This document shows, piece after piece, positions 18,269-39,669 of a stretch of DNA of 64,000 nt. Each line of letters opens with the position of its first letter. Positions within the stretch are counted from its first letter, which is position 1. The notes under the pieces were generated by a model, which was given only the letters and a program-made list of their open reading frames with translations, did not search any database and was not told the origin of the DNA. The translations under genes and the position numbers were made by a program. Source of the stretch: a virus (lineage: Duplodnaviria > Caudoviricetes); the IMG/VR virus record IMGVR_UViG_3300025840_004398; one strand, 5' to 3'.

Positions 18269-18502
18269 ATGACAGAAGAACAATTCAAACAATTGATGGA
18301 GGTTCTAAACGATATACTCGAATCAACTCAGAATATTGAAGATGCAATCTACGATGCAAACTTCAAAGAACACAATGAGAAAGTAGAGTGGAATCTATGG
18401 GAAATCCATAACTTAGCAAAAATTAAATTTAAAGGTTCAGAAAATAGACCATCACGAGATGCAGAGAGAACGCAGGAATCGGAGGAAAGTTCAGAATCAT
18501 AA
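18269..18502 (+). CDS. Hypothetical acidic protein
   Basis: ORF-track frame 18257..18502; ATG 18269 directly follows the upstream stop. No recognisable motif. Confidence 0.45.
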   Translation: MTEEQFKQLMEVLNDILESTQNIEDAIYDANFKEHNEKVEWNLWEIHNLAKIKFKGSENRPSRDAERTQESEESSES

Positions 18503-23129: not shown

Positions 23130-23809
23130 TTATAGAAAAAGAAAAACCATGGTTATTGTGGCCAAGTAAATCTTCTCATGGGATATCAAAAGGAGACATA
23201 CAAAATGTTTTAGAAGGTCATGATGACTTTACTTTTAGTATGAGAATAAAAGTATTATCTAAAGAACCAAATAAAAGAACGATATTTTCAAAGTTACCTA
23301 ATTATATGGGTATAGATGTTGAAAACGAAAATAATAATATTTTATTTATTTGTACAATAAGAAAAGGTGATGTAGTTGAACCAAAGTATATTTTTTTAAA
23401 TGACACCCTTGGTTGGGATTGGAATTTTATTTCTATAAAATATTCAAAAAAATATAATCTAATAGTTTTAGATGTAAATGGTTCTATTTTACATGAACTT
23501 CAATTAAAAGAAGATGAATCAATAGAATCTTTTGATGATTCTCATTTTATATTTGGAGCTGGTAATTTTCCTCACAATGGATTTAATTTAAATTATTCTG
23601 AGTTTGATGTTGATTTTTTATGTATATCAAAAGAATATTTAGAACAAGACGATATCGAAACATTATATAAGAGTGAATCAACAGATAATAAAAATGTAAT
23701 TGGTTTGTATAATTTTAGTAAAAAAACCGATTATCAAATTTTTGATTTAACAAACAATTATAATCTAATACACAGAATGTTAGATTCAACTTCATATTTA
23801 AAAGAATGA
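23126..23809 (+). CDS. Stand-alone LamG/ConA-like domain protein
   Basis: FTFSMRIK...WNFISIKY...LDVNG...FIFGAG pattern resembles the GT7 inserts; ATGA-coupled on both sides. Confidence 0.45.
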   Translation: MIIEKEKPWLLWPSKSSHGISKGDIQNVLEGHDDFTFSMRIKVLSKEPNKRTIFSKLPNYMGIDVENENNNILFICTIRKGDVVEPKYIFLNDTLGWDWNFISIKYSKKYNLIVLDVNGSILHELQLKEDESIESFDDSHFIFGAGNFPHNGFNLNYSEFDVDFLCISKEYLEQDDIETLYKSESTDNKNVIGLYNFSKKTDYQIFDLTNNYNLIHRMLDSTSYLKE

Positions 23810-25182
23810 AACACTACGAAAGTATAAAACATCAGTTAGATAGTGTATCTCCAAGTTTTTGTATAGCTAAGTGGGCTCAACTTACTTTGTATTTACAAAC
23901 GGGATACAACCATTCTTGTCACCACCCAACTCCACATAAAATTCCATTAGAAGAAGTTTTAGAAAATCCAAAGGCACTTCATAATACTCAGTTTAAAAAA
24001 GCTCAAATGAGAAAAATGTTGGAAGGTGAAAGACCTGCTGAATGTGAGTACTGTTGGAAAATAGAAGATTTGGGAAAAGGATATCTTAGTGATAGAGTCT
24101 ATAAATCAGCACATGAATTTTCACAAGAAAAGATAGAAGAAATTGTTACAAGAAAAACCGCTGATATTGAACCAAGTTATTTAGAAATTAGTTTTTCTAA
24201 CACCTGTAATCTTAAATGTGCGTATTGTTCACCTGATATATCTTCAACTTGGATGCAAGAAATAGAACAACATGGTGGTTATCCTACAACATCTAATTAT
24301 AATAATTTAGAGTGGTTTAAACAAAACCAAAAAATGCCATACAAACACTCGGAAGAAAATCCATATGTAGATGCCTTTTGGAAATGGTGGCCGGAACTAT
24401 CACCAAAATTACATACACTAAGGTTAACAGGTGGTGAACCACTTCTATCAAAAGATGTTTGGAAAATTATAGATAGTATTATAGAAAATCCAAATCCAAA
24501 GTTAGTTTTTTGTATAAACACAAACTTGTTAGTACCTGATAATTTAATTGATAAGTTAATTGAAAAATTAAATATACTTGATGGTAAATTAAAAGAGATA
24601 CAAATATTTTCTAGTGGTGAAGCAACAGGAAAATCAAATGAATACATTAGATTTGGAACTAATCATGAAAAGTGGAAGAAAAACTTTGAGAAAGTATTAT
24701 CTCAAACAAAAAATGTATTAGTTGCAAACATGACAACGGTAAACCTAACTAGTGTAAACACCTATTGTGATTTTATAAGGTATCTTTTAGATATGAGAAG
24801 TATTTATAACAAAGAAGTTACTTTTGATAAAGTACAATTTATGACCAACTATTTAAGATATCCTGAATTTTTGGCAATAACCTTATTAGATAATGAAACA
24901 AAAGATAAATTCAAATCAGACGTTGAAAAACTAATAGAAGAAAGAAAGTTTGGTAAATGGAAAGATACAGAATATGGGTATCTAACAAATGAACAAGTTG
25001 ACCAGTTGAATAGATTGATTGACCATATGTATAAAAATACATTTGAAGATGAAGAAAAGTTAAAAACTATTCGTAGAGATTTTTATTCATTTATTGTTGA
25101 ATACGACAAAAGAAGAAATACTAATTTTTTAGAAACTTTTCCTGAATTAGAAAAATTTTATAAGTTATGTCAAGAAGCTTAA
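23806..25182 (+). CDS. Radical SAM enzyme with N-terminal twitch-like domain (subfamily A)
   Basis: FCIAKW...SCHHP...ECEYCW; NTCNLKCAYC; TGGEP; RRNTNFLETFPEL. Confidence 0.9.
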   Translation: MKHYESIKHQLDSVSPSFCIAKWAQLTLYLQTGYNHSCHHPTPHKIPLEEVLENPKALHNTQFKKAQMRKMLEGERPAECEYCWKIEDLGKGYLSDRVYKSAHEFSQEKIEEIVTRKTADIEPSYLEISFSNTCNLKCAYCSPDISSTWMQEIEQHGGYPTTSNYNNLEWFKQNQKMPYKHSEENPYVDAFWKWWPELSPKLHTLRLTGGEPLLSKDVWKIIDSIIENPNPKLVFCINTNLLVPDNLIDKLIEKLNILDGKLKEIQIFSSGEATGKSNEYIRFGTNHEKWKKNFEKVLSQTKNVLVANMTTVNLTSVNTYCDFIRYLLDMRSIYNKEVTFDKVQFMTNYLRYPEFLAITLLDNETKDKFKSDVEKLIEERKFGKWKDTEYGYLTNEQVDQLNRLIDHMYKNTFEDEEKLKTIRRDFYSFIVEYDKRRNTNFLETFPELEKFYKLCQEA

Positions 25183-26507
25183 AAGAAACATCAGATATAA
25201 TAAATTCAATATCCCCATCCTTTTGTGCAGCAAAATGGTATAACGTATCCATATGGTTGGGTAATGGAAGAACCGCTTCTTGTCATCATCCACTTGCTCA
25301 TTATATTCCAAAAATGGAATTAGACAAAAACCCCTCAGCAGTTCATAATACTAAATTTAAAAAAGAAAGAAGAAAGGAAATGCTTGAGGGAGTTAGACCC
25401 GATGAGTGTTCTTATTGTTGGACTGCCGAAGATGCTGCAAAAAAGAATGGAGAAGAAATATTTTCGGATAGAGTATATCAATCAGATAGATACACAACAG
25501 AAGAGATACTTGCTATAAAAGATATACCATGGACACGAGATGTAATTCCGAAAACAGTCGAATTGGCATTTGATAACCTATGTAACTTGGCGTGTTCTTA
25601 TTGTAATGCAGAATTTTCATCAACATGGGCAAGAGATATTGGAACAAAAGGGCCATATGAAGGAATGATAACATCTGGTGGAAAAACTTTTGAAAATGAT
25701 GGTTCTCACGCAATGCCATTTGGGAATAAAAACGAAGGAAACACTTATGTTGAAAAATTCTTTGAATGGTTTCCTATGATTAGAAGGGGACTGCAAGAAT
25801 TAAGAGTATCTGGTGGTGAACCATCTCGTTCACCTTCATTTTGGAGACTATTGGACATTTGTGATAACGATAACTTCGATTTCGCAGTAAATTCAAATTT
25901 AATTATGGATGAAGTCAGACTACAAAAATTAATAGACTCATCCGATAAATTTAAATCATTCGATATATATACTTCTGCTGAATGTGGTGGTAAATTACAA
26001 GAATTTGTAAGAGATGGATTTGATTGGAAACTGTGGGAAGATAATATGTGGAAAGTTGCCAATTCTGGTAAAATAAATGGACTACATATTATGATGACCG
26101 TATCTGTTTTGAGTGTATGGACTATTCATGAATTCTTAAAAATGATTATAGAATGGAGAAAAAAAATAGGACATAAAGAAATATTTTATATGTCCGTTAA
26201 TATAGCTAGATTCCCATCATTTCAAAATGTTAATATAATCGAACAAAGTATAAAAAACGAATTGGCAGATAAAATAGAATCTGCTCTAAATGAATCGAGA
26301 GAGTGGATGCATGAATGGGAACAAAATCACTATGAAAGATTGATTGTATATTTAAGAAACGTAGTTCAGTCATATGAAGATAAAGATACAATGGAAAATA
26401 AAAGAAGTGATTTTAAAAACTTTATACAACAATATTCTAAAAGAAGAAACAAACCACTTGATGAATATTTACCAGAAGAAACATTAACTTGGTTAAATAA
26501 TATCTAA
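25167..26507 (+). CDS. Radical SAM enzyme with N-terminal twitch-like domain (subfamily A)
   Basis: FCAAKW...SCHHP...ECSYCW; NLCNLACSYC; SGGEP. Confidence 0.9.
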   Translation: MSRSLKETSDIINSISPSFCAAKWYNVSIWLGNGRTASCHHPLAHYIPKMELDKNPSAVHNTKFKKERRKEMLEGVRPDECSYCWTAEDAAKKNGEEIFSDRVYQSDRYTTEEILAIKDIPWTRDVIPKTVELAFDNLCNLACSYCNAEFSSTWARDIGTKGPYEGMITSGGKTFENDGSHAMPFGNKNEGNTYVEKFFEWFPMIRRGLQELRVSGGEPSRSPSFWRLLDICDNDNFDFAVNSNLIMDEVRLQKLIDSSDKFKSFDIYTSAECGGKLQEFVRDGFDWKLWEDNMWKVANSGKINGLHIMMTVSVLSVWTIHEFLKMIIEWRKKIGHKEIFYMSVNIARFPSFQNVNIIEQSIKNELADKIESALNESREWMHEWEQNHYERLIVYLRNVVQSYEDKDTMENKRSDFKNFIQQYSKRRNKPLDEYLPEETLTWLNNI

Positions 26508-26509
26508 CT

Positions 26510-27805
26510 ATGCAAAGAAAAGAAGAAAAACCTGGAGATAAAATATCACCTACATTTTGTATTTTACCTTGGATACATTTAAACACATGGCCCAATGGTA
26601 ACGTATATCCTTGTTGTCTTACTGATTGGAGAGAAGATATCGGCAACATGAAAGATAATACTCTTGAAGAGTTATGGAATGGTGATATCATGAAGGAAAT
26701 CCGAAGGTTTATGTTGGAAGGTAAAAAACATCATAGTTGTAGAAAATGTTTTCAACAAGAAGATTATGGATTGGATTCTACAAGAGAATCTTCCAATAGA
26801 CACTATGAACATCATATAGACACAATCACAAACAACACCACACCAGACGGATACAATAATGATTTTAAATTACTATATTGGGATTTCAGATTTTCTAATT
26901 TATGTAACTTTAAATGTAGAATGTGTGGTTCATTTCTTTCATCAAAATGGTATGAAGATGAAGTTAAAATATTCGGAGGGTCTGTATTACCTCAGGCAAT
27001 CATAAATGTTGATGATTATTCAAAAAAAGGAATTAAGTTTTACTTAGACAAGTTTATTGATGAGGTAGAAGAAATTTATTTTGCAGGAGGAGAACCTCTT
27101 TTGATGGATGAACATTATTATATTTTAGAAGAACTTACTAAAAAGAAAAATTTCGATGTAAGACTTAGATACAACACAAACTTAGGATTTTTAAAATTTA
27201 AAAAATGGGATAATTTAGAGCTTTGGAAACCATTTAAAGAAAGAAGTGATTTAAATGTAAATATTTTTGCATCAATTGATGCCTATGGACCAAGAGCGGA
27301 ATACTCAAGAAAAGGAACAAAATGGCCAACGATAGAAAATAATATAAAAAGATTAATTGAAGCCGGATTTAATTTTCATATTAGTTGTACTACAAATATA
27401 TTTAACGTATTTCATGTTCCTGATTTGGTAGATGAAATGATTCGAATTGGAGTTCCATATTATTCAATACAGTTAAATAATGTATTAACGAATCCAAATT
27501 ATTATCACATTAATATACTACCTAAAGAATTAAAAGATAAAGTTACTGAAAAATATAACAAACACTTGGATTCTATGGAATCTCATATTAGGGATGAATT
27601 TATTCCAAAATATGAAAGTATATTTAATTTTATGAATGAAGAGGTTGATGGTGATGTAGAAGAAATAAGAGTTGCTTTTAAAGAATTAACTGTAAAATTA
27701 GACAAGGGTAGAGAAGAAAACTTTGAAGAAGTTTTTCCAGAACTAAAAGAATGGTTTAATTCTATTAGAAAAGACGAAGATGAAACATGGAAAAAAATAT
27801 TATGA
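26510..27805 (+). CDS. Radical SAM enzyme with N-terminal twitch-like domain (subfamily B)
   Basis: CILPWIHL...PCC...SCRKC; NLCNFKCRMC; AGGEP; RYNTN; FPEL. Confidence 0.9.
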   Translation: MQRKEEKPGDKISPTFCILPWIHLNTWPNGNVYPCCLTDWREDIGNMKDNTLEELWNGDIMKEIRRFMLEGKKHHSCRKCFQQEDYGLDSTRESSNRHYEHHIDTITNNTTPDGYNNDFKLLYWDFRFSNLCNFKCRMCGSFLSSKWYEDEVKIFGGSVLPQAIINVDDYSKKGIKFYLDKFIDEVEEIYFAGGEPLLMDEHYYILEELTKKKNFDVRLRYNTNLGFLKFKKWDNLELWKPFKERSDLNVNIFASIDAYGPRAEYSRKGTKWPTIENNIKRLIEAGFNFHISCTTNIFNVFHVPDLVDEMIRIGVPYYSIQLNNVLTNPNYYHINILPKELKDKVTEKYNKHLDSMESHIRDEFIPKYESIFNFMNEEVDGDVEEIRVAFKELTVKLDKGREENFEEVFPELKEWFNSIRKDEDETWKKIL

Positions 27806-29028
27806 TAGAAAAAAAGTACATATGTGACTTTCCATGGACTCAGTTATATAACACACCATCTGGTACCGTAACTCCATGTTGTGTATTTGGAGAACCAATA
27901 AAAAAGGATGATGGGACTCCATTTCTTTTACAAAAAGACTCTATTCAAGAAATATTTCAAAGTAATTATTTAAAAAATTTAAGAGAGTCATTTAACAGGG
28001 GTGAAAAACCAAATCATTGTGATTTTTGTTGGAAACAAGAAAACTTGGGATATGAAAGTAGGAGAATACAAAACAATCAGTTTCATAAAGACATGAATAT
28101 TGAAATTGATTACAACACTCATCCTGAATATCCAATAGAATATGAAGTAATATTATCAAACTCATGTAATTTAAAATGCAGAAGTTGTAATTCAATTTTA
28201 AGTACACAGTGGTTAAAAGAACAGAAGAAATTTACAAAGGATGAGTTAGAAATATTAGACATGCCCCCAATAGATTTATCTAATATCCAAGTGGGATATA
28301 AAGATTCAAAGTATATGACAGATATTTCCGAATGGGCTCCTCATGTTCGTAAAATTCAAACACTTGGTGGTGAACCTTTATATGGGGATACATGGAAATA
28401 TGTAATTGATTATTTGATTGAAAATGGCCACTCTAAACAAATATCATTAAGTATATCAACCAACGGCACTTTGTATGATGAGGAGTTTATAAAAAGATTG
28501 TGTGATAACTTTGAAAGTATAACCATCGGACTTAGTATAGATGGTCAAGGTCAAATATTCGAATTTCTAAGAAAAAACGGAAAATGGAATGAAGTTGAAG
28601 AAAATATTATAAATTATCAAACAAAGTTTTCAGATTATAAAAATTATGAACACTATTTTAGATTTACTGTTTCATGGATTAACGCTTTATTTATGCCTGA
28701 CTTTGAAAAATGGGTAAAAAATACAAATAGATTTTCTCCAACAAATTATGGAATTTTGTTTGAACCACATCATATGGCTTTATGGAATATTCCTACATTT
28801 TTTAAACAAAAAATAAAAGAAAAATTGGAATCTACTGAGTTCAAAGGAAACGAAAATAATATAAAATCTTTAATAGAATATATGTTTAGTAAATCACCAA
28901 CCGATTCTAGTATAAAAAATAGTTTTATAAAATTTAAAATTATTGATAAGTATAGAAATGAGAGCACATTGGATATTATAAAAAATATTGATTCTGAATT
29001 ATATAATTTTTACACAAGGATTACTTAA
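27802..29028 (+). CDS. Radical SAM enzyme with N-terminal twitch-like domain (subfamily B)
   Basis: CDFPW...PCC...CDFCW; NSCNLKCRSC; LGGEP; STNG. Start placed at the ATGA overlap (track start 27787). Confidence 0.88.
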   Translation: MIEKKYICDFPWTQLYNTPSGTVTPCCVFGEPIKKDDGTPFLLQKDSIQEIFQSNYLKNLRESFNRGEKPNHCDFCWKQENLGYESRRIQNNQFHKDMNIEIDYNTHPEYPIEYEVILSNSCNLKCRSCNSILSTQWLKEQKKFTKDELEILDMPPIDLSNIQVGYKDSKYMTDISEWAPHVRKIQTLGGEPLYGDTWKYVIDYLIENGHSKQISLSISTNGTLYDEEFIKRLCDNFESITIGLSIDGQGQIFEFLRKNGKWNEVEENIINYQTKFSDYKNYEHYFRFTVSWINALFMPDFEKWVKNTNRFSPTNYGILFEPHHMALWNIPTFFKQKIKEKLESTEFKGNENNIKSLIEYMFSKSPTDSSIKNSFIKFKIIDKYRNESTLDIIKNIDSELYNFYTRIT

Positions 29029-30294
29029 ATGACACCAAAAAAAGAAAGATTTATATGTGATTTGCCATGGACACACCTAAGTGTTCATCCACATGGTAAT
29101 GCTTCTATTTGTTGTGTTGCTGACCACTCACACCCACAATCAACTGCTGCAGATAAAAACGAAAATGGTGAGTATGTTCATATTCATAAAATCACAAATG
29201 GAATTCCAAAAATTATAAATTCTGATACATATAAAGACATACGAAAGGCAATGATTGAAGGAGAACGACCTCCTGCTTGTTCTACTTGTTGGAAAGTTGA
29301 AGATGCTGGTGGTAGGTCTAAGAGAATTAGAGATTCGTATATTTTTCCCGATGTAGATAAAATAACAAAACCAGATGGTAGTATAGATGTAGACTTATCT
29401 AATATAGAAGTTCGTCTTGGTAACTATTGTAATTTAAAATGTAGAAGTTGTAATGCAGAATCATCAACAAGTTGGATTGATGATTACTATAAACTAAGAA
29501 ATAAAGTTCCATTACCAAGTGGATATGATAGACTTAAAAATTCAGAGCACGTTACATATGATTGGGTTGAAGATGAAAAGTTTTATGATGACTTAATAAA
29601 AAACTCACCAAACATTGAACAACTTCATATTAGTGGAGGGGAACCATTTTTAGTACCAAAACATTTTTATTTGTTAGACAAATTGATTGAAGATGGTTTG
29701 GCTGAAAATATAAAAATATTTTATATTACTAATGCTAATTATAACTTTGATAAACTAAGGCCAGCTTTGTATAAATTAACAAAATTCAAAGAGGTATATA
29801 TATCTTTTTCAGTAGATGATGTTGGGGATAGAAATACATACATAAGAAGTCTTAGTAATTGGAAATTAACAATAGATAATATTAAAAAGTTTGTAGATGA
29901 GTACCCCACATTTTGGTATACTGTTACTCAAACTTTAAATGCATTTAATTTTTTATATTTTGAGGAATTAACTCAATTTCTTGTAAAAGAAGGGTTGTAT
30001 AAATTTGATGGAAATGGCCATATAAAAAATATTATAACAAATCATGTTCATTCACCTGAATACCAAAATGCAACAGTACTTCCATTGGATGTAAGAAGAA
30101 GTAAAATAGACTCTGTAAAAGGATTAGTGGCTCCTCATTATTTTGAAGATATTCATGGAAGATATTATGATGCTAAGTCAAATAATCAAATGGAATTATT
30201 TAAGAAAGTTACAGATGAGGTAGATAAGGTAAGACGAGAATCCATATCCGAAATATTTCCAAAACTATATAAAGAAATTACAAATATATTATGA
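29029..30294 (+). CDS. Radical SAM enzyme with N-terminal twitch-like domain (subfamily B)
   Basis: CDLPWTHL...ICC...ACSTCW; NYCNLKCRSC; SGGEP. Confidence 0.9.
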   Translation: MTPKKERFICDLPWTHLSVHPHGNASICCVADHSHPQSTAADKNENGEYVHIHKITNGIPKIINSDTYKDIRKAMIEGERPPACSTCWKVEDAGGRSKRIRDSYIFPDVDKITKPDGSIDVDLSNIEVRLGNYCNLKCRSCNAESSTSWIDDYYKLRNKVPLPSGYDRLKNSEHVTYDWVEDEKFYDDLIKNSPNIEQLHISGGEPFLVPKHFYLLDKLIEDGLAENIKIFYITNANYNFDKLRPALYKLTKFKEVYISFSVDDVGDRNTYIRSLSNWKLTIDNIKKFVDEYPTFWYTVTQTLNAFNFLYFEELTQFLVKEGLYKFDGNGHIKNIITNHVHSPEYQNATVLPLDVRRSKIDSVKGLVAPHYFEDIHGRYYDAKSNNQMELFKKVTDEVDKVRRESISEIFPKLYKEITNIL

Positions 30295-31520
30295 AACCAA
30301 CTAAAAGCGTAAGTTGTGTCCATGCTAAAAATGGATTAAGAGTTACAAACGATGGTTTTGTAATGCCTTGTTGTTATTATGACTATAAACATAGATTTAA
30401 AGACCGAAACGGAGACTACATAAAAACCGATGTTCATAGTATTAAAGATATGATGGAATCTCCTGACAGAAGGGACTTAATTAATTCTTTAGAAAATGGA
30501 ATAAAACATGAAGGTTGTAAAAGATGTTGGGTTGATGAAGATGTAAAGGGAGATAGTAAAAGATTAAGAGACTTAGAAACATTGGGTATGTTTTCTAAAG
30601 ATAACAATCAAGCTAAGTTCATAGAATTAAATCTTGGTATTACTTGTAATTTGGCTTGTAGAATGTGTAATGTTGGTGCATCAATTAAATGGATGAATGA
30701 GCATAGATTAGTATATGACACACCTGACCACTGGAAAGATGATGATAATTATAAAAAAGAAGTAAAGACTTTTTATAAAAGTTATGAGTACGATTCTATT
30801 TTTTGGGAAGAACTGCCAAAAATATTACCAGATGTAAAAACAATAGATATGTATGGTGGAGAACCAATGTTAATGAAAAAACAATGGGAGGTTTTACAGA
30901 TAGCGGTTGAAAAAGGATATTCAGAAAACATATCATTGCATTTCAATACAAATGGAACCATATATAATGATGCATATGTTGAAATACTAAAGAATTTTGG
31001 CCATGTTACATTTAGTTTTAGTATAGATGGTATTGGTAAAAGATTTGAATATATTAGACATCACGGTTCATGGGATGATGTAGATACTAAAGTTAGAAAA
31101 TGGATATCTCTTACAAAAGAAAATAAAAATTTTGAAATAGATTTGGCATATACCGTAACTAATTTAAATATTGGATTTATAGATGAAGTTGCAACATGGT
31201 GTTTTGCTAATAATGTAAGAATGTATTTAATAAACGTATCTGAACCAGAGTATTATTCTCCATACAATTTGCCAGTTGGTGCAAAAAATATGATTACTGA
31301 AAAAATGAATAAGTTTATTTCAAACAATAGATTTTTATCAAAAGAATTAATAAATGACATAAACGGCTCGGTAAATTTAATGAATTCTCAAAACTATAAT
31401 TTAGAAGAGTGGAGTAAATTTATAAAAGCAACTCAAATATTAGACAAATCTAGAAATCAAGATTTTATGAAAGCTTTCCCTGAGTTGGGGAAATATATAA
31501 ACACAAATTTATTTTTATGA
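30291..31520 (+). CDS. Radical SAM enzyme with N-terminal twitch-like domain (subfamily B)
   Basis: SCVHA...PCC...GCKRCW; ITCNLACRMC; YGGEP; FNTNG; FPEL. Confidence 0.9.
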   Translation: MKPTKSVSCVHAKNGLRVTNDGFVMPCCYYDYKHRFKDRNGDYIKTDVHSIKDMMESPDRRDLINSLENGIKHEGCKRCWVDEDVKGDSKRLRDLETLGMFSKDNNQAKFIELNLGITCNLACRMCNVGASIKWMNEHRLVYDTPDHWKDDDNYKKEVKTFYKSYEYDSIFWEELPKILPDVKTIDMYGGEPMLMKKQWEVLQIAVEKGYSENISLHFNTNGTIYNDAYVEILKNFGHVTFSFSIDGIGKRFEYIRHHGSWDDVDTKVRKWISLTKENKNFEIDLAYTVTNLNIGFIDEVATWCFANNVRMYLINVSEPEYYSPYNLPVGAKNMITEKMNKFISNNRFLSKELINDINGSVNLMNSQNYNLEEWSKFIKATQILDKSRNQDFMKAFPELGKYINTNLFL

Positions 31521-32497
31521 ACAAAATACTCATTACAGGAGGAGCAGGTTACTTAGGTTCAATAATTACAGAAACACTTTTAGAAGGATGGAGAGAAGTT
31601 ACTGTATTAGATAACTTGATGCACAACCAAACATCAGTATCTATCTTTTCACATCAAAAAAACTTTAAGTTTGTTTATGGTGATGTAAGAGATAAAGAAT
31701 TACTAAAAGAATTAGTATTAGAACATGATGTGATTATTCCACTTGCAGCAATCGTTGGATTTCCTGCTTGTGAAAGAGATAAAGAATTAGCAACTCAGAT
31801 AAATTATGAGCACGTCAAGTTTGTATGTGAGTTAGCAAAAGAACATAATAAAAAGGTGGTTTATCCGAACACTAATAGTGGATACGGGATAGGAGAGAGT
31901 GGTGTTTGTACGGAGGAAAGTCCGCTAAACCCCATTTCCCATTATGGGAAAACCAAGGTAGAGGCAGAAAAAGAGGTACTTGGGATAGGAGGTATCTCTT
32001 TACGCCTTGCTACTGTGTTTGGAACATCACCAAGAATGAGAATGGACTTGTTAGTAAACGAATTTGTTTACAAAGCACTAACTGATAAGTACATTACACT
32101 TTTTGAGAGAAAGTTTGTACGAAACTTCATTCATATCAGAGATGTTGCATTGGTATTTAGAAAAATGATAAACCAATATGACCAATGGACTAATAATGGT
32201 AAATTTGGTAGAGTATTTAATGTAGGTTTATCTTCAGCAAATCTAACCAAACAAGAATTATGTGAAGCAATCAAAGAACAGATACCTTCATTTGAGATTT
32301 TCCACAATGATAATTACGAGGACCCTGATAAACGAGATTATGTAGTATCAAATGAGTTACTTGAAAGTTGTGGGTGGAAACCAAGATACACTTTAGAAGA
32401 AGGTATTGAAGAATTGATTAAATGTTACACAATTCTAATTAAAGATTTAAGTTCAAAGTATAGAAATGATTTTCCATTAGGTTATGGCATTAAATAG
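31517..32497 (+). CDS. NAD-dependent epimerase/dehydratase (extended SDR)
   Basis: ILITGGAGYLG, LAAIVG, intact catalytic YGKTK, LRLATVFG, DKRDY. Confidence 0.9.
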   Translation: MNKILITGGAGYLGSIITETLLEGWREVTVLDNLMHNQTSVSIFSHQKNFKFVYGDVRDKELLKELVLEHDVIIPLAAIVGFPACERDKELATQINYEHVKFVCELAKEHNKKVVYPNTNSGYGIGESGVCTEESPLNPISHYGKTKVEAEKEVLGIGGISLRLATVFGTSPRMRMDLLVNEFVYKALTDKYITLFERKFVRNFIHIRDVALVFRKMINQYDQWTNNGKFGRVFNVGLSSANLTKQELCEAIKEQIPSFEIFHNDNYEDPDKRDYVVSNELLESCGWKPRYTLEEGIEELIKCYTILIKDLSSKYRNDFPLGYGIK

Positions 32498-33068
32498 AAG
32501 TATATTTTACAAAGAACGAGATTGGAACGATTTCCATTATTACAATGGTTCGGTACTCAACGAGGTAAAGGTTGTACAACCATCTACTTACTATGAGTTC
32601 AGAGGTTCTATATCTACCACTTACCATTCAGATTACTACGATAGGTTACTACCTGCGAACGAACGTAACGAAGGTTTACAATTCAAACATGATAGGTACT
32701 CAAAATCAAAATATGGAGTTCTTAGAGGATTACATTATGATGAAAAAACTTGGAAGTTGGTAAGTTGTATTCATGGTAAAATTTATTTAGTAGTATTAGA
32801 TGTAAGACCTTACTCAACCACTTATGGTAAATGGGAATCTTTTATTCTTTCACCTGAAACAGGAACACAAGTTCTTATTCCACCAAACTTTGCAAATGGA
32901 CACTTTGTAATGGAAGATGATTCAATCTTCTTTTATAAGATGGCATATCAAGGTGAGTATAATGATGAGAACAAGCAAAAAACGATTGTATTTAACAATC
33001 CTAAGTTTAATATAGATTGGCCAGTACAATCACCAATCTTATCAAAACGAGATAGATATGAACATTAA
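32484..33068 (+). CDS. rmlC: dTDP-4-dehydrorhamnose 3,5-epimerase-like cupin
   Basis: EFRG, GVLRGLHY, KLVSCIHG, LDVR, IPPNFANGH, C-terminal IDWP...ILSKRD. Confidence 0.85.
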   Translation: MALNRSIFYKERDWNDFHYYNGSVLNEVKVVQPSTYYEFRGSISTTYHSDYYDRLLPANERNEGLQFKHDRYSKSKYGVLRGLHYDEKTWKLVSCIHGKIYLVVLDVRPYSTTYGKWESFILSPETGTQVLIPPNFANGHFVMEDDSIFFYKMAYQGEYNDENKQKTIVFNNPKFNIDWPVQSPILSKRDRYEH

Positions 33069-33696
33069 AAATTTAGATTACCACGAAGATAGATGGACTG
33101 AAGGTAATTGGTCTGTACAAGATTTAATAGATTTTGAAGATGATATCATAAAACATTGGGAAGGTGGAGAAATCACAGGACCAATTCACCTATCAAATGG
33201 TAACGAAAAAGAACTAATTAGAATATTCAATAAAATTGGTATTGACGATTGGGTATTCTCAACTTGGAGGTCTCATTATCACGCACTTTTACATGGTATG
33301 GAACCTTCGGTATTAAAACAAAAAATTTTAGATGGTAAATCCATAACAATTGTAGATAAAGATTCTAAGTTTTATGCTTCTGCAATCGTAACTGGTACTT
33401 TACCAATTGCATTAGGAGTTGCAAAAGCAATCAAACTCCAAAAATCAGATAATAAAGTTTGGGTATTCTTAGGAGATATGGCATTTGAAAGTGGAATCTT
33501 TTATGAAGTTCACAAATATGCAAGAAACTATGATTTACCTTTGTATTTCGTGGTAGAAGATAATGGTGTAAGTACAAATACACCTACATTAGATACATGG
33601 AATGGTATTCAAAGAGAAATACCAGAAGATGTGATATATTATAAGTATGAATCAAAATATCCCCACTATGGGACAGGAAAATGGGTAGTATTTTAG
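33058..33696 (+). CDS. ThDP-dependent enzyme, E1-alpha-like (diphosphate-binding) subunit
   Basis: GPIHLSNGNE, STWRSH, GDMAFESG...EDN ThDP motif; about 210 aa, shorter than a PDH E1 alpha. Confidence 0.8.
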   Translation: MNIKNLDYHEDRWTEGNWSVQDLIDFEDDIIKHWEGGEITGPIHLSNGNEKELIRIFNKIGIDDWVFSTWRSHYHALLHGMEPSVLKQKILDGKSITIVDKDSKFYASAIVTGTLPIALGVAKAIKLQKSDNKVWVFLGDMAFESGIFYEVHKYARNYDLPLYFVVEDNGVSTNTPTLDTWNGIQREIPEDVIYYKYESKYPHYGTGKWVVF

Positions 33697-34613
33697 TAAC
33701 AGGTTGTAGTGGTTTAGTAGGAACTCATTTAGTTCACAAATTATTAGAAAAAGATTATTATGTTGTGGGTGTAGATTTGTATAAATCAGACAATTTACCA
33801 ACACATGATAAGTTTACTTTTCATAATATTGATTTAAGAGACCCATACGATGTAAATGTATTATTTAGTCAACATCAATTTGGTGGTGTGGTAAATGCAT
33901 TTGGAATTAAAGGTTCGCCAATTAAAGCAAAGGAAAATCCTGTTGATTTTTTAGAACCATCAATTAAAGTAAATACAAATATTATAGATAATTGTGTAAA
34001 AAGAAAAATTTGGCTGGTTTTTATGAGTTCGGTAGGAGTTTATGAACCAGCAGAAGAATTTGTAGAAGATACAGTATGGAAAACACTTCCATCACCAAAC
34101 GATTGGTTTCCATCTTGGTCAAAAAGAATACCAGAGTTGTATTTAGAAGCTCACAAAGTTCAACATGGATACGATAAATGGACAATTGTAAGACCAGCAA
34201 ACATTTTTGGTGAATATGATAATTTCGGAGATGGTGCAACTGTAATCGGAGCAACTTGTAGAAAAGTTTACGAATCGGATGGTGAGATTGAAGCATGGGG
34301 AGATGGAACACCAACTCGTGATTTTATTTATGCAGGAGATGTTGCTGATGGTTGTATCAAATGTTTAGAAGATAAACTGCATATAACAACTAACTTAGGA
34401 AGTGGTGAAGAAATATCAATCAAACGAATGATTGAAACTGTTGCCAAAGTTAGTGGTAAAGAAATAAAAATTAATTGGGATACATCCAAACCCAATGGTG
34501 ATATGAGAAGAAGAATGAGTACTAAGATACAAGAACAATTCGGTCTATTACCAAAACTTGGATTTGAACAAGGAATAAAACGAACATACGAACATTATGA
34601 AAAAAACAGATAA
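33681..34613 (+). CDS. Extended SDR, GDP-L-fucose-synthase-like
   Basis: LVTGCSGLVG, RPANIFG, WGDGTPTRDF, PNGDMRR. The YxxxK position reads PSWSK. Confidence 0.75.
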   Translation: MGSILVTGCSGLVGTHLVHKLLEKDYYVVGVDLYKSDNLPTHDKFTFHNIDLRDPYDVNVLFSQHQFGGVVNAFGIKGSPIKAKENPVDFLEPSIKVNTNIIDNCVKRKIWLVFMSSVGVYEPAEEFVEDTVWKTLPSPNDWFPSWSKRIPELYLEAHKVQHGYDKWTIVRPANIFGEYDNFGDGATVIGATCRKVYESDGEIEAWGDGTPTRDFIYAGDVADGCIKCLEDKLHITTNLGSGEEISIKRMIETVAKVSGKEIKINWDTSKPNGDMRRRMSTKIQEQFGLLPKLGFEQGIKRTYEHYEKNR

Positions 34614-35589
34614 AATATTAGTTACAGGAGCAAGTGGATTTATAGGTTCACGATTAATCAAAATGTTATGGGAAAATGGTTATACCAATTTACGTTCCAC
34701 ATCGTGGAGTAGAGGTTTGCGAGAAGATTTCGAAGGGTGGTCAGAAGTAGAACATCTAAATGGAGATTTGAGAGATGCGGATTTCTGTCAAAGAGTTTCG
34801 GAGGGAGTTGATGTTGTATTCCACGCAGCAGCAAACACTTCGAATGCATTAGACACTAAAGTAAATCCACTACTCCATGTAACACCTAACGTAGAAATGA
34901 ATACAAACCTTATGGAACAAAGTTGGAGAAACAAAGTTCGTAAGTTTATGTTTATTTCTTCTAACACAACTTACCCTGATGTGGGTGATGAGTATTGTAC
35001 AGAAGAAATGGAAGTACAAACTCCAAATATTTATCCTGTCTACAAGGCAGTTGGTTGGATGAAGAGATATGGAGAAACTCTTTGTGAGTTTTTCTCTAAC
35101 CAAATCCATGACCCAATGCAATGTGTAATCATCAGACCTTCAAATGCATTTGGACCAAATGATAAATTCGATTATGAGAAGTGTCATGTAACACCCGCAA
35201 ACATTCGTAAGGTTGCAGACGGATTAAATCCAATTCCACTATGGGGAGATGGTACAGAAGTAAGAGATATTATCCATGTTGATGATATGGTAAGTGGATT
35301 TATCACAGTTGCAGAAAATGTGGATACCTATGATATCTATAACGTATGTTATGGTAAAGGACATACTGTAATGGAGGTATTAGAGTTGTTAAAAGAAATC
35401 GAAGGTAACGATAATCCTATCGAGTTTGTAAATAACAAAGCACCGATGATACCAAAGAGATTATTATCAAGTAAAAAATTAGAAAAACTTGGTTGGAAAC
35501 CAAAATACGATTTAAGAAGTGGATTAGAAGATGCACTTCGTTGGTATAAAGAAAACAAAGACCAGTTTGACCCAAATTCAAAACCATAA
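34597..35589 (+). CDS. Extended SDR, GDP-L-fucose-synthase-like
   Basis: ILVTGASGFIG, FHAAA, RPSNAFGP, HVTPA, WGDGTEVRD. The YxxxK position reads VGWMK. Confidence 0.8.
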   Translation: MKKTDKILVTGASGFIGSRLIKMLWENGYTNLRSTSWSRGLREDFEGWSEVEHLNGDLRDADFCQRVSEGVDVVFHAAANTSNALDTKVNPLLHVTPNVEMNTNLMEQSWRNKVRKFMFISSNTTYPDVGDEYCTEEMEVQTPNIYPVYKAVGWMKRYGETLCEFFSNQIHDPMQCVIIRPSNAFGPNDKFDYEKCHVTPANIRKVADGLNPIPLWGDGTEVRDIIHVDDMVSGFITVAENVDTYDIYNVCYGKGHTVMEVLELLKEIEGNDNPIEFVNNKAPMIPKRLLSSKKLEKLGWKPKYDLRSGLEDALRWYKENKDQFDPNSKP

Positions 35590-36137
35590 TGAGTAAACCA
35601 GAATTCACACCTTATGTAGATGCACTAACAGAGGCAATGAAATTGTGTATGGATGAACCATCTACAATTTTTATAGGACAACAAATTGTTTATTATGGAA
35701 ATCCAATGTCAAAGACAATTGAAGGTTTACCAAAGGAACGAATGATTGAAACTCCAGTCATGGAAGAAACTCAAATGGGAATGACTATGGGTCTTGCAAT
35801 GGCAGAACATCAAGTTGTTACTTTTTATCCTCGTTGGGATTTTCTAATTCTCGCGTGTAATCAGTTGGTAAATCACTTGGATAAGTTAGAAGCGATGTCT
35901 GATGGTGAGTGGAAACCAAACGTAATTGTAAGAGTTGGTAAAGGAAGTGATAAACCACTTGACCCAGGTCATCAACACAAAGCAGATTATACAGAACCAT
36001 TCAAACAAATTTTAACTAATGCAACTATACAAGAATTAAAGAAAGCTGAACAAATTTTACCCGCTTATCAGAGAGCTTTAGATATGGGAGGAATACATAT
36101 ACTTGTAGAATACCCAGAATTATATTATAACAATTAA
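35589..36137 (+). CDS. ThDP-dependent enzyme, E1-beta/transketolase pyrimidine-binding subunit (no C-terminal domain)
   Basis: FIGQ, ETPVMEETQMGMTMGLA, NQLVNH, GHQH; 182 aa. Confidence 0.8.
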   Translation: MSKPEFTPYVDALTEAMKLCMDEPSTIFIGQQIVYYGNPMSKTIEGLPKERMIETPVMEETQMGMTMGLAMAEHQVVTFYPRWDFLILACNQLVNHLDKLEAMSDGEWKPNVIVRVGKGSDKPLDPGHQHKADYTEPFKQILTNATIQELKKAEQILPAYQRALDMGGIHILVEYPELYYNN

Positions 36138-36139
36138 CT

Positions 36140-36271
36140 ATGAAAAAAATTTATAACTTTTTATTTGGAAGAATCACCCGTTGGAAAGAAAAAAAGAAAA
36201 TGGAAAAGATTTATAAAAAAAGATTAGAGGAATTGCGTAAAAGAGACCCCTTCATTTACAAAAATCACTAA
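36140..36271 (+). CDS. Small basic hypothetical protein, 43 aa
   Basis: Hand-translated: MKKIYNFLFGRITRWKEKKKMEKIYKKRLEELRKRDPFIYKNH. Starts 2 nt after the upstream stop; not in the ORF track. Confidence 0.6.
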   Translation: MKKIYNFLFGRITRWKEKKKMEKIYKKRLEELRKRDPFIYKNH

Positions 36272-36294: not shown

Positions 36295-36315
36295 TACTGA
36301 TAAGGTATATTGAAT

Positions 36316-39300
36316 ATGAGTAAACTTTCACAATATCTCGTAGAGCAAATGCTCTTAGAGGATGTAAATCCTATTAAGAAGGTCGTAGTAATTTATGGAG
36401 GCAGATTTCAACCATTCCATAAAGGACACTATGGTACTTATCAACACCTTGTCAAAAAATTCGGTAAAGATAACGTTTTTATCAGTACTTCAAACAAAGT
36501 AGAAAAACCAAAATCACCTTTTAACTTCAAAGAAAAGGTTAAGATTATGACTACTATGTTCAATATACCTAAATCAAAAATAGTACAGGTAAAAAACAAC
36601 TATGCACCGAAAGAAATCCTCGATAAATACGATAAAGAAACAACCGCCTTCGTAACTGTTGTTGGTATGAAAGATAAAAGTAGATTAGGTGGAAAGTATT
36701 TTAGACCTTGGAAGGGTGAGGCAGAAGTTGGTTATGAAGAAGGTGGATATGTGTACGCTGCACCATCACAAACCAATTCAGTTAGTGGTACTGAAGTACG
36801 AAACGGAATGTCAATGGGTTCTGATGACCAAAAAGAAAACTTTTTTACAAATAGAGCATATGGAAAGTTTAATAAGACAATCTTTAAGATGATTACTGAT
36901 AAACTGAATGAAGGTATCGCGATTCCTAAAGAAATTATTGAAGAATGGCTCATCAATGAGAGTTCTAACTTAGGTGGAAATGGTGGAAGAGATATTGATG
37001 ATGGTCCAAACTTCTTTATACCAAATTACGATGTATTCCAACGAGTATCTGCAAAAAGAGCAGCTAAGATTGGATATGAAGTGGTAAATATGATTACTTC
37101 AAAAGAAATTGAAGATTATTATGACCACCCAACTTATCCTGATGGACCTGTTAAAGCAGTTTCCTTCTTCCCTGCAGGTGTTATCGGTAACTTATCATCA
37201 AACAACCAAGTTGATATCTATTCAAGTGGTGCATACTCACAATGGTTTAAACACGCAACTCGTAAAGCTGCTTTAGCAGGATATCAATTAGTAAATTCTC
37301 TTGCTTCCAAAGAAGATATTACCCAAGATAAAAAAGTTGCAGGTGATGGAGCAAAAGGTGATAAAGAATTAAAGGATGAATTCGAAAAATCAATAAACGA
37401 AGCAATTACCTTACCAGTATCAGTTGGTGATACTATCTTAACTGGTAGATTTAAGAATAAAAAGGTAGTTGTTAAATCAATTGGTAAAGATGAACATGGT
37501 ATGCCAACCATCAATGGTAAAAAAGTAGTAACTTTCAGATTAATGAAAGAAGGATTCGTTACTGAACTTGCTGGAACTGCAGTTAGATGTGAAAAATGTA
37601 ATCATTCTTGGGATATAGAAGAAGATGATGATGAAAAATATCTATGTCATTCTTGTGGATGGGATTCACAACAACAAGAGTACGATTATGATGCATTTGA
37701 TTCATGGGCAGAAAAAAGTGGATTGTTTGAATCAATAGAAGAAGAAATAGATGAAAGAGGTGGTAAACTAAGACCAGCAGATATCCTAAGAAGAAAAGCT
37801 GCAAGAGCTGGTAAGAGAGCACAAATAGCAAGAAGAAGAAAAAGAACAATGATGAGAAAAAAACCTCTTGCAAAACTTAAAAAGATTGCCTACAAGATGG
37901 CATACAGACAAGTTTATGATGAATTTGCCCAAGAATTGTTCCCAAATACACCTAAATCAGATTTAACTATTCAACAAACTAAAGTTATTCACAGAAATGT
38001 ACTTAGAAAGAAAAAAAGAGTACTAAAAAGAGCAAGATTTAGATTCTTACCTGCTTTACGAGATAAAGAGTCTGAAAAGTTTGGTGGAAAAACTAACATT
38101 TCATTTGATAAACCAAAAGAAACCAACGAACAACTTGCAAAAGGAATGAGTTTAAAGGATATTGCTGATAAACATGGAGTTTCGTTTGAAGAATTATCAA
38201 AAGAAGCTAAAAAAGGTGTTAAAGTTGAAATGGAACATACTTCAGATGTGAAACAAGCATATAATATTGCAAAAGACCACTTATTTGAGGACCCAAAATA
38301 CTACACCAAACTTGCAACCATAGAAGAACTTGCTCCGCATGGATATCCAGACCAAAAATGGATGGATAATCACGAAAAAGAACTCAAAAAGTTGAGAACC
38401 ACAATGGATAAACAACAAAAAGAGTTCTATAAAGAACATATAAACGAATCAAACCTCCTAATGGAAGGTGGTGCGTACGGACACATGAACCACCCATTCG
38501 ATACTGATATCAATTTAACCTTTGGACAACTAAAAGATATCGTAAACAGAGCACTAGAAGGTAACTTAGAGTTAGCAAGAGAGAAAACTGATGGTCAAGC
38601 TCTTGCAATTTCATGGAGAGATGGTAGATTAGTAGCAGCAAGAAACAAAGGACACCTAAAAAACAGAGGTGAGAACGCTTTAGACATCAAAGGAGTAGCT
38701 GATAAGTTCGCTGGTAGAGGTGAATTAGAAAAGGCTTATAACTTTGCAATGCAAGACCTTTCAAAAGCAATAAGTTCACTTACTGAAAAACAAAGAAACA
38801 AGATTTTTAGAGGTGGAAGTTGTTTTATGAACCTTGAAGTAATATATCCATCCAATGCAAACGTAATTCCTTATGGTCAAGCGTTACTTGTGTTCCATGG
38901 AACGATGGAATATAATGATGAGGGTGTTGCAATTGGTGAAAATCAAGAAGCAGCAACTATTTTAGCGGGTATGATTAAACAAGTTAATCAAAATGTACAA
39001 GACAATTATACTATACAAGGTCCTCCTGTAATAAAATTGCCAAAATCACAAAACCTTTCATCAAAAAAATCAATATATACATCTAAAATCTCTAAATTAC
39101 AAAAAGAATTTAAATTAAAGGACACCGATGGAGTTGGTAATTACCACCAATCATGGTGGGAACAGTGGGTAGACAAAAATTCACCTTCATCCTTAGATAA
39201 TAGAACAAAAATGGGTCTTGTTAAAAGATGGGCTTTCTATGATAAAGGATTTAGAATCGATAAAAATAACATAAAAGACGAAAAAACTTTAAATTGGGCA

Positions 39301-39669
39301 TTAAAAACGGATAAAGAGGACCAACAGAAGATTGCTAAGAAAAATTTGATGAAATTCGAAGATATTTTCTTAGGTTTAGGAGCAGAGGTATTACAATTTA
39401 CTTCATCAGTACTAACTGTGAACCCTGATAAGGCAGTTCGTGATATGAAGAAACGAATTGATAAGACAATAAAGGATGTTAGAAAATCAGGTGACCCAAA
39501 AAAGATAGAAAAACTTAAATTAGAACTTCAAAGATTAAAATCTATTGGTGGAAAGGACAAAATAGTACCTAATGAGGGTATTGTGTTTGTTTATAACGGA
39601 AGTACCTTTAAGTTAACAGGAACATTCGCTCCTGTTAATCAATTATTAGGTATTTTCATGAGAGGATAG
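36316..39669 (+). CDS. Multidomain protein: HIGH nucleotidyltransferase + Zn ribbon + DUF5661-like module + ligase-fold (KxDG) domain
   Basis: YGGRFQPFHKGH; CEKC...CHSC; KGVKVEMEH...IAKDHLFEDPKYYTKL; EGGAYGHMNHP...EKTDG...NEGIVF...FKLTG. Track start is TTG 36310. Confidence 0.7.
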   Translation: MSKLSQYLVEQMLLEDVNPIKKVVVIYGGRFQPFHKGHYGTYQHLVKKFGKDNVFISTSNKVEKPKSPFNFKEKVKIMTTMFNIPKSKIVQVKNNYAPKEILDKYDKETTAFVTVVGMKDKSRLGGKYFRPWKGEAEVGYEEGGYVYAAPSQTNSVSGTEVRNGMSMGSDDQKENFFTNRAYGKFNKTIFKMITDKLNEGIAIPKEIIEEWLINESSNLGGNGGRDIDDGPNFFIPNYDVFQRVSAKRAAKIGYEVVNMITSKEIEDYYDHPTYPDGPVKAVSFFPAGVIGNLSSNNQVDIYSSGAYSQWFKHATRKAALAGYQLVNSLASKEDITQDKKVAGDGAKGDKELKDEFEKSINEAITLPVSVGDTILTGRFKNKKVVVKSIGKDEHGMPTINGKKVVTFRLMKEGFVTELAGTAVRCEKCNHSWDIEEDDDEKYLCHSCGWDSQQQEYDYDAFDSWAEKSGLFESIEEEIDERGGKLRPADILRRKAARAGKRAQIARRRKRTMMRKKPLAKLKKIAYKMAYRQVYDEFAQELFPNTPKSDLTIQQTKVIHRNVLRKKKRVLKRARFRFLPALRDKESEKFGGKTNISFDKPKETNEQLAKGMSLKDIADKHGVSFEELSKEAKKGVKVEMEHTSDVKQAYNIAKDHLFEDPKYYTKLATIEELAPHGYPDQKWMDNHEKELKKLRTTMDKQQKEFYKEHINESNLLMEGGAYGHMNHPFDTDINLTFGQLKDIVNRALEGNLELAREKTDGQALAISWRDGRLVAARNKGHLKNRGENALDIKGVADKFAGRGELEKAYNFAMQDLSKAISSLTEKQRNKIFRGGSCFMNLEVIYPSNANVIPYGQALLVFHGTMEYNDEGVAIGENQEAATILAGMIKQVNQNVQDNYTIQGPPVIKLPKSQNLSSKKSIYTSKISKLQKEFKLKDTDGVGNYHQSWWEQWVDKNSPSSLDNRTKMGLVKRWAFYDKGFRIDKNNIKDEKTLNWALKTDKEDQQKIAKKNLMKFEDIFLGLGAEVLQFTSSVLTVNPDKAVRDMKKRIDKTIKDVRKSGDPKKIEKLKLELQRLKSIGGKDKIVPNEGIVFVYNGSTFKLTGTFAPVNQLLGIFMRG

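What the first reader, a model, noticed from the sequence alone, without database searches (positions are those of the whole stretch)
31517..36137. Minimal split ThDP enzyme with RmlC and two Tyr-less SDRs: possible branched-chain sugar pathway
Seen: short E1-alpha-like (212 aa) and E1-beta-like (182 aa, no C-terminal domain) genes bracket two fucose-synthase-like SDRs whose YxxxK reads PSWSK and VGWMK; no E2 or E3 genes. Established: ThDP enzymes such as YerE add a pyruvate-derived C2 unit to NDP-4-keto-deoxysugars (yersiniose A), and SDR catalysis normally needs the Tyr. Inference: the phage makes a C-branched sugar, and the atypical SDRs may have altered chemistry or act as substrate-binding partners of the ThDP pair.
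Basis: partly seen in the sequence, partly recalled or inferred. Interest (0 to 1): 0.66.

Follow-up and report, generated by a model that had tools for sequence, protein, structure and literature searches.

The report
Phage branched-heptose sugar pathway
A large uncultured T4-like phage carries a conserved six-gene unit that most likely makes an activated keto-sugar (probably a heptose), adds a short carbon branch with a stripped-down thiamine enzyme, and finishes it with two re-tooled reductase-like enzymes; no member has been assayed and I found no description of the product sugar.

Summary
Observation confirmed; interpretation right in outline, wrong in details. The six overlapping genes form a conserved module (all six in 49 of 60 long viral loci). 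Gene 1 is a Campylobacter Cj1427-type GDP-heptose C4-dehydrogenase (E 6.6e-101). The 'RmlC' is closest to GDP-4-keto-heptose 3,5-epimerases. The likely acceptor is therefore a 6-OH-retaining GDP-4-keto-heptose, not a 6-deoxyhexose. The short alpha/beta pair is a widespread E1-type clade that keeps the ThDP-binding and catalytic residues; no E2, E3 or TKC domain was found. SDR-b is not Tyr-less: a near-invariant Tyr149 (171/172) lies one helical turn before the usual site. SDR-a has no Tyr there, but invariant Ser116/Asp141/Lys148/Arg149 (214/214). Loci picked by SDR-a carry an E1-type alpha gene in 86 of 93 cases (minimal or full-length; canonical fucose-synthase controls 7/55), whereas the minimal pair often lacks these SDRs (present in 6/45 cellular loci). 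So the SDRs most likely act on the ThDP product and are not its binding partners. Best model: C4-acyl branching, then branch-ketone reduction (0.68). Open points: donor, SDR-a chemistry, heptose supply (four complete relatives lack GmhA/HddA), glycan target. This scan reported the ThDP/heptose cassette before on other DNA.

The parts
31517..32497 (+). Cj1427-like GDP-sugar C4-dehydrogenase (SDR, YxxxK intact at Tyr143-Lys147); predicted to make the 4-keto acceptor while keeping the 6-OH
   Evidence: PDB 6vo6 E 6.6e-101, next hit 1.3e-19; function of Cj1427 from PMC10680097
32484..33068 (+). Cupin C3 and/or C5 epimerase of the GDP-4-keto-heptose type (MlghB/DdahB-like); His84, Lys91, Tyr151, Asp190, Asn138, His140 kept; Ser73 where DdahB has Ile56
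   Evidence: 8db5 E 1.1e-47 versus best dTDP RmlC 9.5e-25; residue roles from PMC7949155; positions
33058..33696 (+). Minimal E1-alpha-type ThDP diphosphate-binding (PP) subunit: Asp140...Asn169 metal/diphosphate motif, His44, Arg71, His203; lacks the GSMH loop, ~35 internal residues and the C-terminal helices
33681..34613 (+). SDR-a: fucose-synthase-like SDR with no Tyr at or near the catalytic site; invariant Ser116, Asp141, Lys148, Arg149; acidic residue after beta-2 (NAD-type, inferred)
34597..35589 (+). SDR-b: fucose-synthase-like SDR, Val152 at the canonical Tyr site, near-invariant Tyr149 one helical turn earlier, Lys156, His197; no acidic residue after beta-2 (NADPH-type, inferred); predicted branch-ketone reductase
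35589..36137 (+). Minimal E1-beta-type PYR subunit without TKC domain; conserved Glu59/Glu60, Phe85, Gln129-His130

Best explanation
The module makes a C4-branched GDP-sugar. [quoted passage not shown] Step 2 (strong homology): the cupin epimerises C3 and/or C5. Step 3 (inferred from family precedent and gene context): the minimal alpha/beta pair binds ThDP, decarboxylates a 2-oxoacid (pyruvate is the default) and adds the acyl anion to the C4 ketone, giving a 4-C-acetyl sugar. Step 4 (inferred): SDR-b reduces the exocyclic branch ketone with NADPH, using Tyr149 as a relocated general acid, which would suit a carbonyl one bond further out and a quaternary C4. Step 5 (weakest): SDR-a, with a Ser/Asp/Lys/Arg site, performs a second NAD-linked step on the branched product (epimerisation, or the other carbinol epimer). 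Glycosyltransferases upstream would transfer the product, probably to virion proteins (not shown).
For: Shown here: module conserved in 49/60 long viral loci with other genes inserted and reshuffled around it. A 4-keto-forming enzyme is present in 90/93 SDR-a loci, and where Cj1427 is missing it is replaced by a dehydratase closest to GDP-heptose 4,6-dehydratase 7us5 (E 6e-110 versus 4e-38 for GDP-mannose dehydratase). HddA is present in 16/23 long metagenome loci; heptose-supply genes in 20/45 long GTDB loci. E1-type alpha beside SDR-a in 19/23 metagenome and 67/70 viral loci, 26 of 29 lineages after dereplication at 75% identity, versus 7/55 for canonical fucose synthase. Minimal and full-length E1 pairs occupy the same cassette. 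ThDP catalytic residues are invariant or nearly so. A natural alpha-beta fusion folds with pTM 0.90 into PP+PYR domains. The minimal alpha is one clade (98/96) on the E1 side of a 100/100 split from transketolase. No E2/E3. Literature: alphaKADH2 pairs add C2 branches at C3 or C4 from pyruvate, and branch ketones are often reduced (PMC12247030); YerE/YerF scheme (PMC9306805).
Against: No member has been assayed. The minimal alpha lacks the GSMH loop of E1 alpha, so donor and even carboligase chemistry are unproven. Four complete related phages have no GmhA or HddA, so heptose must come from the host or the substrate is GDP-mannose; the epimerase has Ser73 at the Ile56 position, although heptose-supply loci share that Ser. 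About half of the cellular minimal-pair loci (21/45) show no Cj1427-like or dehydratase gene within 10 kb. One reductase would suffice for a yersiniose-type product, so SDR-a is not accounted for. Tyr149's position is read from alignment and secondary structure only; no ligand geometry was measured.
Confidence: 0.68

Rival explanations
1. Branching happens, but the SDR pair then rebuilds the skeleton: SDR-a oxidises a side-chain hydroxyl or drives an alpha-ketol shift or aldol closure between the heptose tail and the branch ketone, giving a rearranged or carbocyclic (caryose-like) sugar, which SDR-b reduces.
For: Two different non-canonical SDR active sites travel together (SDR-b in 87/93 SDR-a loci) and are fused in one archaeal protein (646 aa, L178, identical in L244). 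SDR-a's Asp141/Arg149 are invariant. A Cj1427 product keeps 6-OH and 7-OH. The chemistry is my inference.
Against: The same SDR pair mostly occurs with the 4,6-dehydratase (57/70 viral loci), whose 6-deoxy product cannot be oxidised at C6. These archaeal genomes fuse many neighbours, so the fusion is weak evidence. SDR-b was not found at E<=1e-68 in 301 sampled genomes of the Methylocystis order (strict cut-off, no positive control).
Confidence: 0.14
2. The ThDP pair does not branch C4 but extends a chain (transketolase/DXS-like), adding C2 to a sugar aldehyde or making a precursor; the SDRs are C4-reductases or make the aldehyde.
For: Foldseek's best hits for the fused homologue are DXS and transketolase chains. 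Related phages lack a heptose supply. SDR-b-type enzymes also sit with a split transketolase in Azospirillum.
Against: The Foldseek ranking reflects PP+PYR on one chain (identity 12-16%); sequence and tree place the alpha with E1, not transketolase. Plain C4-reductases keep the SYK triad (PMC7949155; control set Tyr 57/57 where the motif was read).
Confidence: 0.13
3. The pair is a pyruvate/acetoin dehydrogenase E1 auxiliary metabolic gene that works with host E2/E3, as automatic names suggest.
For: Database names 'pyruvate dehydrogenase E1 component alpha'; best family matches are PDH E1.
Against: Scores far below cut-off (80 versus 394 bits); the TKC domain that docks on E2 (established knowledge) is absent; no E2/E3 in ~240 related loci, whereas true dehydrogenase E1 genes sit beside E2; consistently embedded in glycan genes.
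Confidence: 0.03
4. The SDRs are catalytically dead substrate-binding or scaffold partners of the minimal ThDP pair, replacing its missing domain.
For: Canonical Tyr lost; one metagenomic ORF joins SDR-b to alpha (L247, single case).
Against: The minimal pair occurs with both SDRs in only 6/45 long cellular loci; the SDRs also accompany full-length E1 with TKC (12/23 metagenome loci); invariant Ser/Lys plus a replacement Tyr or Asp look like selected catalytic sites.
Confidence: 0.04

Closest known systems
alphaKADH2-type E1 alpha/beta sugar-branching enzymes of antibiotic clusters (KbDH-alpha/beta of kibdelomycin; aldgamycin, kosinostatin, trioxacarcin, paulomycin, avilamycin clusters; PMC12247030)
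   Same: Separate E1-type alpha and beta chains without E2/E3, embedded among keto-sugar enzymes, followed by reductases; conserved ThDP residues.
   Different: Here both chains are cut down (212 + 182 aa; no TKC, no GSMH loop), the context is GDP-heptose-type enzymes in phages, DPANN, CPR and SAR11 rather than actinomycete antibiotic deoxysugars, and activity is untested.
YerE/YerF (yersiniose A), ErwE/ErwF, MMAR_2332, MyGE (PMC9306805)
   Same: Logic: ThDP acyl transfer to a nucleotide-4-keto sugar, then NAD(P)H reduction of the branch; surface-glycan role.
   Different: YerE-types are single-chain decarboxylase-family enzymes acting on CDP-3,6-dideoxy-4-keto-glucose. I could not test whether YerF shares SDR-b's displaced Tyr.
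Campylobacter jejuni HS:2 heptose pathway Cj1427 / Cj1430 / Cj1428 (PMC10680097, PMC7949155)
   Same: Genes 1 and 2 are close homologues of Cj1427 and Cj1430, and fucose-synthase-like SDRs follow.
   Different: The single SYK C4-reductase is replaced by a ThDP pair and two SDRs with rebuilt active sites; no GmhA/HddA in the phage.
GDP-L-fucose synthase (Fcl/GMER) and GDP-mannose 3,5-epimerase
   Same: Extended SDR fold (top Foldseek hit 1gfs, TM 0.79) and best NCBIfam match.
   Different: About 25% identity; canonical Tyr absent; Cys109 replaced in both, His179 replaced in SDR-a; scores 131 and 146 versus cut-off 500.
'Transketolase central region-containing protein' of cyanophages S-SM2 and P-TIM68
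   Same: Fused alpha-beta members of the same minimal clade (about 40% identity), in sugar islands with heptose-isomerase and kinase genes.
   Different: Fused, paired with a zinc alcohol dehydrogenase instead of SDR-a/b; uncharacterised and loosely named.

Membership tests
alphaKADH2 (E1 alpha/beta) ThDP enzymes | Separate PP (alpha) and PYR (beta) chains of E1 descent | tested here: met
   tree 100/100 apart from transketolase N, position among E1 alphas unresolved
alphaKADH2 (E1 alpha/beta) ThDP enzymes | GDG-X24-27-NN diphosphate/Mg motif and catalytic Glu | tested here: met
   Variant G139-D140-M141, 26 residues, D168-N169; beta Glu59 invariant
alphaKADH2 (E1 alpha/beta) ThDP enzymes | Beta chain carries a TKC domain; alpha about 320 aa with GSMH loop | tested here: not met
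   No PF02780 in the beta or in four complete relatives; deletions seen in alignment
alphaKADH2 sugar-branching enzymes | Transfers a pyruvate-derived C2 unit to a keto-sugar | not testable with these tools
   needs assay
Pyruvate/acetoin dehydrogenase complex E1 | E2 and E3 partners; family cut-off | tested here: not met
YerE-like decarboxylase family | Single chain with TPP_enzyme N, M and C domains | tested here: not met
   Only a weak TPP_enzyme_C overlap on the alpha
GDP-L-fucose synthase | Extended SDR fold | tested here: met
   SDR-b model pLDDT 91.6, Foldseek 1gfs; SDR-a by sequence only
GDP-L-fucose synthase | Ser-Tyr-Lys triad with Tyr in YxxxK | tested here: not met
   SDR-a position 144 never Tyr in 214 sequences; SDR-b Val152 here (Tyr in 50/172, matching 50 with Arg for Lys)
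GDP-L-fucose synthase | Cys109/His179 epimerase dyad; NF047922 cut-off | tested here: not met
   SDR-a Val118/Thr187, SDR-b Thr124/His197; 131 and 146 bits versus 500
Cj1427-type GDP-heptose C4-dehydrogenase | Full-length close homology with intact YxxxK | tested here: met
   341 bits, residues 2-307
Cj1427-type GDP-heptose C4-dehydrogenase | Heptose specificity and 2-oxoglutarate-driven NAD recycling | not testable with these tools
   No diagnostic difference from homologues in HddA/GmhA loci, but no assay
MlghB/DdahB GDP-heptose epimerases | His67, Lys74, Tyr134, Asp173, Asn121 and C7-OH-binding His123 | tested here: met
   His84, Lys91, Tyr151, Asp190, Asn138, His140
MlghB/DdahB GDP-heptose epimerases | Ile56 contacting C7 (Ser in RmlC) and Tyr132 | tested here: not met
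   Ser73 and Phe149; Ser also in most HddA/GmhA loci

The most novel reading that the evidence does not exclude
A two-domain ThDP carboligase smaller than any solved relative found here branches a GDP-heptose, and two SDR subfamilies with rebuilt catalytic sites (relocated Tyr; Asp in place of Tyr) convert it into an undescribed branched or carbocyclic nonose that abundant aquatic phages, SAR11, CPR bacteria and DPANN archaea display on their surfaces.
Probability: 0.3. Interest if true: 0.82.

Novelty: new variant of a known kind. Interest (0 to 1): 0.6.

Why it matters
If right, it predicts a branched heptose-derived sugar that I found in no paper searched, in a cassette spread across many aquatic phage contigs and uncultured cells, and it shows that genes auto-named 'pyruvate dehydrogenase E1' in such phages are glycan enzymes, not carbon-metabolism genes. 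The 394-residue pair would be a compact ketone-accepting carboligase; the 2025 review notes that no structure of a ketone-accepting alphaKADH2 exists (PMC12247030). SDR-a and SDR-b give a clean test of catalysis without the canonical Tyr. All upstream substrates can be made with published Campylobacter enzymes, so the claim is directly testable.

Tried and rejected
Complex prediction of SDR-a with SDR-b gave no verdict (score 0.00); not used as evidence either way. No whole genome is held for the window, so four complete relatives stood in (G306-G309). A repeat viral scan added nothing. Plasmid search with the minimal beta: no match. SDR-b profile in 301 genomes of the Methylocystis order: none at E<=1e-68, so a link to bradyrhizose was not found; the cluster paper names no ThDP gene in the passages searched. 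Coxiella papers gave no link between E1 genes and its branched sugars. No paper found on phage pdhA/pdhB with the terms used, or on this family. YerF sequence not obtainable, so its motif was not compared. Sigma-70 promoter and terminator scan was at chance level. Truncation or assembly artefact rejected. Residue switch from heptose to hexose in the phage enzymes looked for and not found. Tree did not resolve which full-length E1 the minimal clade came from. Models could not be inspected for Tyr149-ligand distances.
Full report
Setting. The window is part of a large T4-like phage: T4-type terminase at 41048 and portal at 43102, head genes to 55515, and close relatives of 214-289 kb in IMG/VR (capsid 78%, terminase 94% identical to G307). 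The six genes close a run of about 21 kb of mostly overlapping genes (15192-36137) with a methyltransferase, a GT2-like gene, three GT7-LamG proteins, a cytidylyltransferase-like gene and seven radical SAM genes.

Observation. All six ORFs, both short ThDP chains, both motifs and the lack of E2/E3 are as described. The short chains are real families: 4832 alpha homologues, the best 120 nearly all 199-229 aa, and a beta family near 180 aa. All six genes occur together in 49 of 60 long viral loci picked by the alpha, with unrelated genes inserted between them and in some cases a changed order.

The acceptor. 31517-32497 matches Campylobacter Cj1427 (6vo6) at E 6.6e-101, next hit 1.3e-19. [quoted passage not shown] The cupin is closer to GDP-4-keto-heptose epimerases (1e-47) than to dTDP RmlC (1e-24) and keeps His140, equivalent to DdahB His123 that binds the C7 hydroxyl (PMC7949155). 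Where relatives lack Cj1427 they carry a dehydratase closest to GDP-heptose 4,6-dehydratase (6e-110 versus 4e-38 for GDP-mannose dehydratase), often with a PLP enzyme closest to ColD-type 3-dehydratases. Cellular versions often include HddA, GmhA or GmhB. Against: four complete related phages have no GmhA or HddA, and the epimerase has Ser73 where DdahB has Ile56, though loci with heptose supply share that Ser. Heptose is favoured (about two to one, my estimate); GDP-mannose is not excluded.

The ThDP pair. The alpha keeps Asp140 and Asn169 of the diphosphate motif, His44, Arg71 and His203; the beta keeps Glu59, Phe85 and Gln129-His130. Against full-length E1 alpha it has lost the GSMH loop, about 35 residues after the motif and the C-terminal helices. 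In cells the two genes are adjacent or fused; a natural fusion folds confidently (pLDDT 88.8, pTM 0.90) into PP and PYR domains. Minimal alphas form one clade (98/96) on the E1 side of a 100/100 split from transketolase N, position among E1s unresolved. No E2, E3 or TKC domain occurs in the window, in G307, in four complete phages or (E2/E3) in about 240 related loci, while true dehydrogenase E1 genes sit beside E2. It is therefore not a standard member of alphaKADH2, but most likely works like its sugar-branching members, which add C2 units from pyruvate at C3 or C4 (PMC12247030).

The two SDRs. They are two distinct subfamilies. SDR-a: Ser116, Asp141, Lys148 and Arg149 are invariant in 214 sequences and the canonical Tyr position is Ala, Pro, Gly or Thr, never Tyr. 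SDR-b: Tyr149 is present in 171 of 172; the canonical position is Val in 110 and Tyr in 50, and Lys156 is Arg in 50. The sets were collected with profiles from the same families, so conservation is partly selected, but neither Asp141 nor Tyr149 was in the scan patterns. In the model the catalytic helix spans 147-169, so Tyr149 is i-3 from the usual site and i-7 from Lys156, on the same helix face (inference from helix geometry). SDR-a has an acidic residue after beta-2 and SDR-b has none, which by the usual SDR fingerprint suggests NAD(H) and NADP(H) (established knowledge applied).

Direction of dependence. Loci of 14 kb or more picked by SDR-a, without reference to the ThDP genes, carry an E1-type alpha in 19/23 metagenome and 67/70 viral cases, SDR-b in 87/93 and a 4-keto-forming enzyme in 90/93. 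After dereplication at 75% identity 26 of 29 lineages have the E1 gene; viral loci picked by canonical fucose synthase have it in 7/55. Twelve metagenome loci have a longer alpha; in the three checked the beta has a TKC domain. Conversely, cellular loci picked by the minimal alpha hold both SDRs in only 6/45. The SDRs thus need an E1-type partner, minimal or not, but the minimal pair does not need them. This fits enzymes acting on the ThDP product and argues against a scaffold role. SDR-b types also lie beside a split transketolase in Azospirillum. One archaeal protein fuses SDR-a to SDR-b directly before alpha and beta, weak evidence because these genomes fuse many neighbours.

Mechanism. Shown: gene content, families, residues, co-occurrence. 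Inferred: C4 oxidation and C3/C5 epimerisation of a GDP-sugar (high); ThDP acyl transfer to C4 (moderate); NADPH reduction of the branch ketone by SDR-b through Tyr149, as YerF does after YerE (PMC9306805) (moderate to low); role of SDR-a (low); transfer to virion proteins (low; based on position between tail-like and head genes, nearby glycosyltransferases, and a motif shared with structural-gene starts).

Novelty. Each logic element is known; the combination, the minimal architecture and the two SDR sites were not described in the papers searched. Earlier notes of this scan reached the same ThDP/heptose reading on other DNA; my heptose assignment predates reading them, and they are not independent support. 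New here are the SDR subfamily motifs, the controlled reverse co-occurrence test, the exchange of minimal and full-length E1 pairs, and the missing heptose supply in complete phages. Verdict: real, new variant of a known kind, directly testable; interest 0.6.

Noticed in passing
window 21747-31520: Seven radical SAM genes nearly in tandem; the last passes the cut-off of the twitch-domain family NF033640, the others match a profile built from related phage genes. Number varies among relatives.
   Followed up: no
window 5224, 14040, 15140, 36287, 39689, 42646, 44857, 52168, 55597, 63852: TATTTATA on the coding strand (reverse complement of the T4 late promoter TATAAATA) lies in intergenic gaps in 10 of 16 occurrences although gaps are 3.3% of the window, 14-44 bases before gene starts. 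Gaps are AT-rich, so part of this is expected.
   Followed up: partly
window 16798-18267, 18459-19898, 20302-21750: Three GT7-family glycosyltransferases each with an inserted LamG domain; candidate transferases for the module's product.
   Followed up: partly
window 36310-39669: 1119-aa protein with an N-terminal cytidylyltransferase-like domain and DUF5661, found after the module in most relatives with variable length.
   Followed up: no
window 36140-36270: A 43-codon basic ORF directly after the beta gene, below the ORF cut-off.
   Followed up: no
L011:5598-5999 and relatives: A 134-aa protein with no Pfam match occurs in 59 of 70 viral SDR-a loci and elsewhere in G307, but not in this window.
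   Followed up: no
viral SDR-a loci L323-L402: The epimerase's C7-OH-binding His is Phe, as in hexose RmlC, in about 22 loci, hinting that some versions use a hexose.
   Followed up: partly
L334:4348-5181, L348, L402, L272, L284: A third E1-alpha clade of about 277-296 aa (100/100) also sits beside SDR-a; no beta was detected by my profile.
   Followed up: partly
L167, L168, L173, L176, L191, L320, L362: SAR11, Chloroflexota and some viral loci carry both the minimal E1 pair and a split transketolase with the SDRs, suggesting two C-C forming steps.
   Followed up: no
L426:10422-15270: Cultured Azospirillum lipoferum 4B plasmid p6 has a Cj1427-like gene, a full-length E1 alpha/beta pair and a DegT-family gene together; a tractable model.
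   Followed up: partly
L404:93-3679: Complete relative G307 has a second sugar island with a HAD-nucleotidyltransferase fusion and a DegT gene, plus a PfkB kinase elsewhere; could bear on substrate supply.
   Followed up: partly
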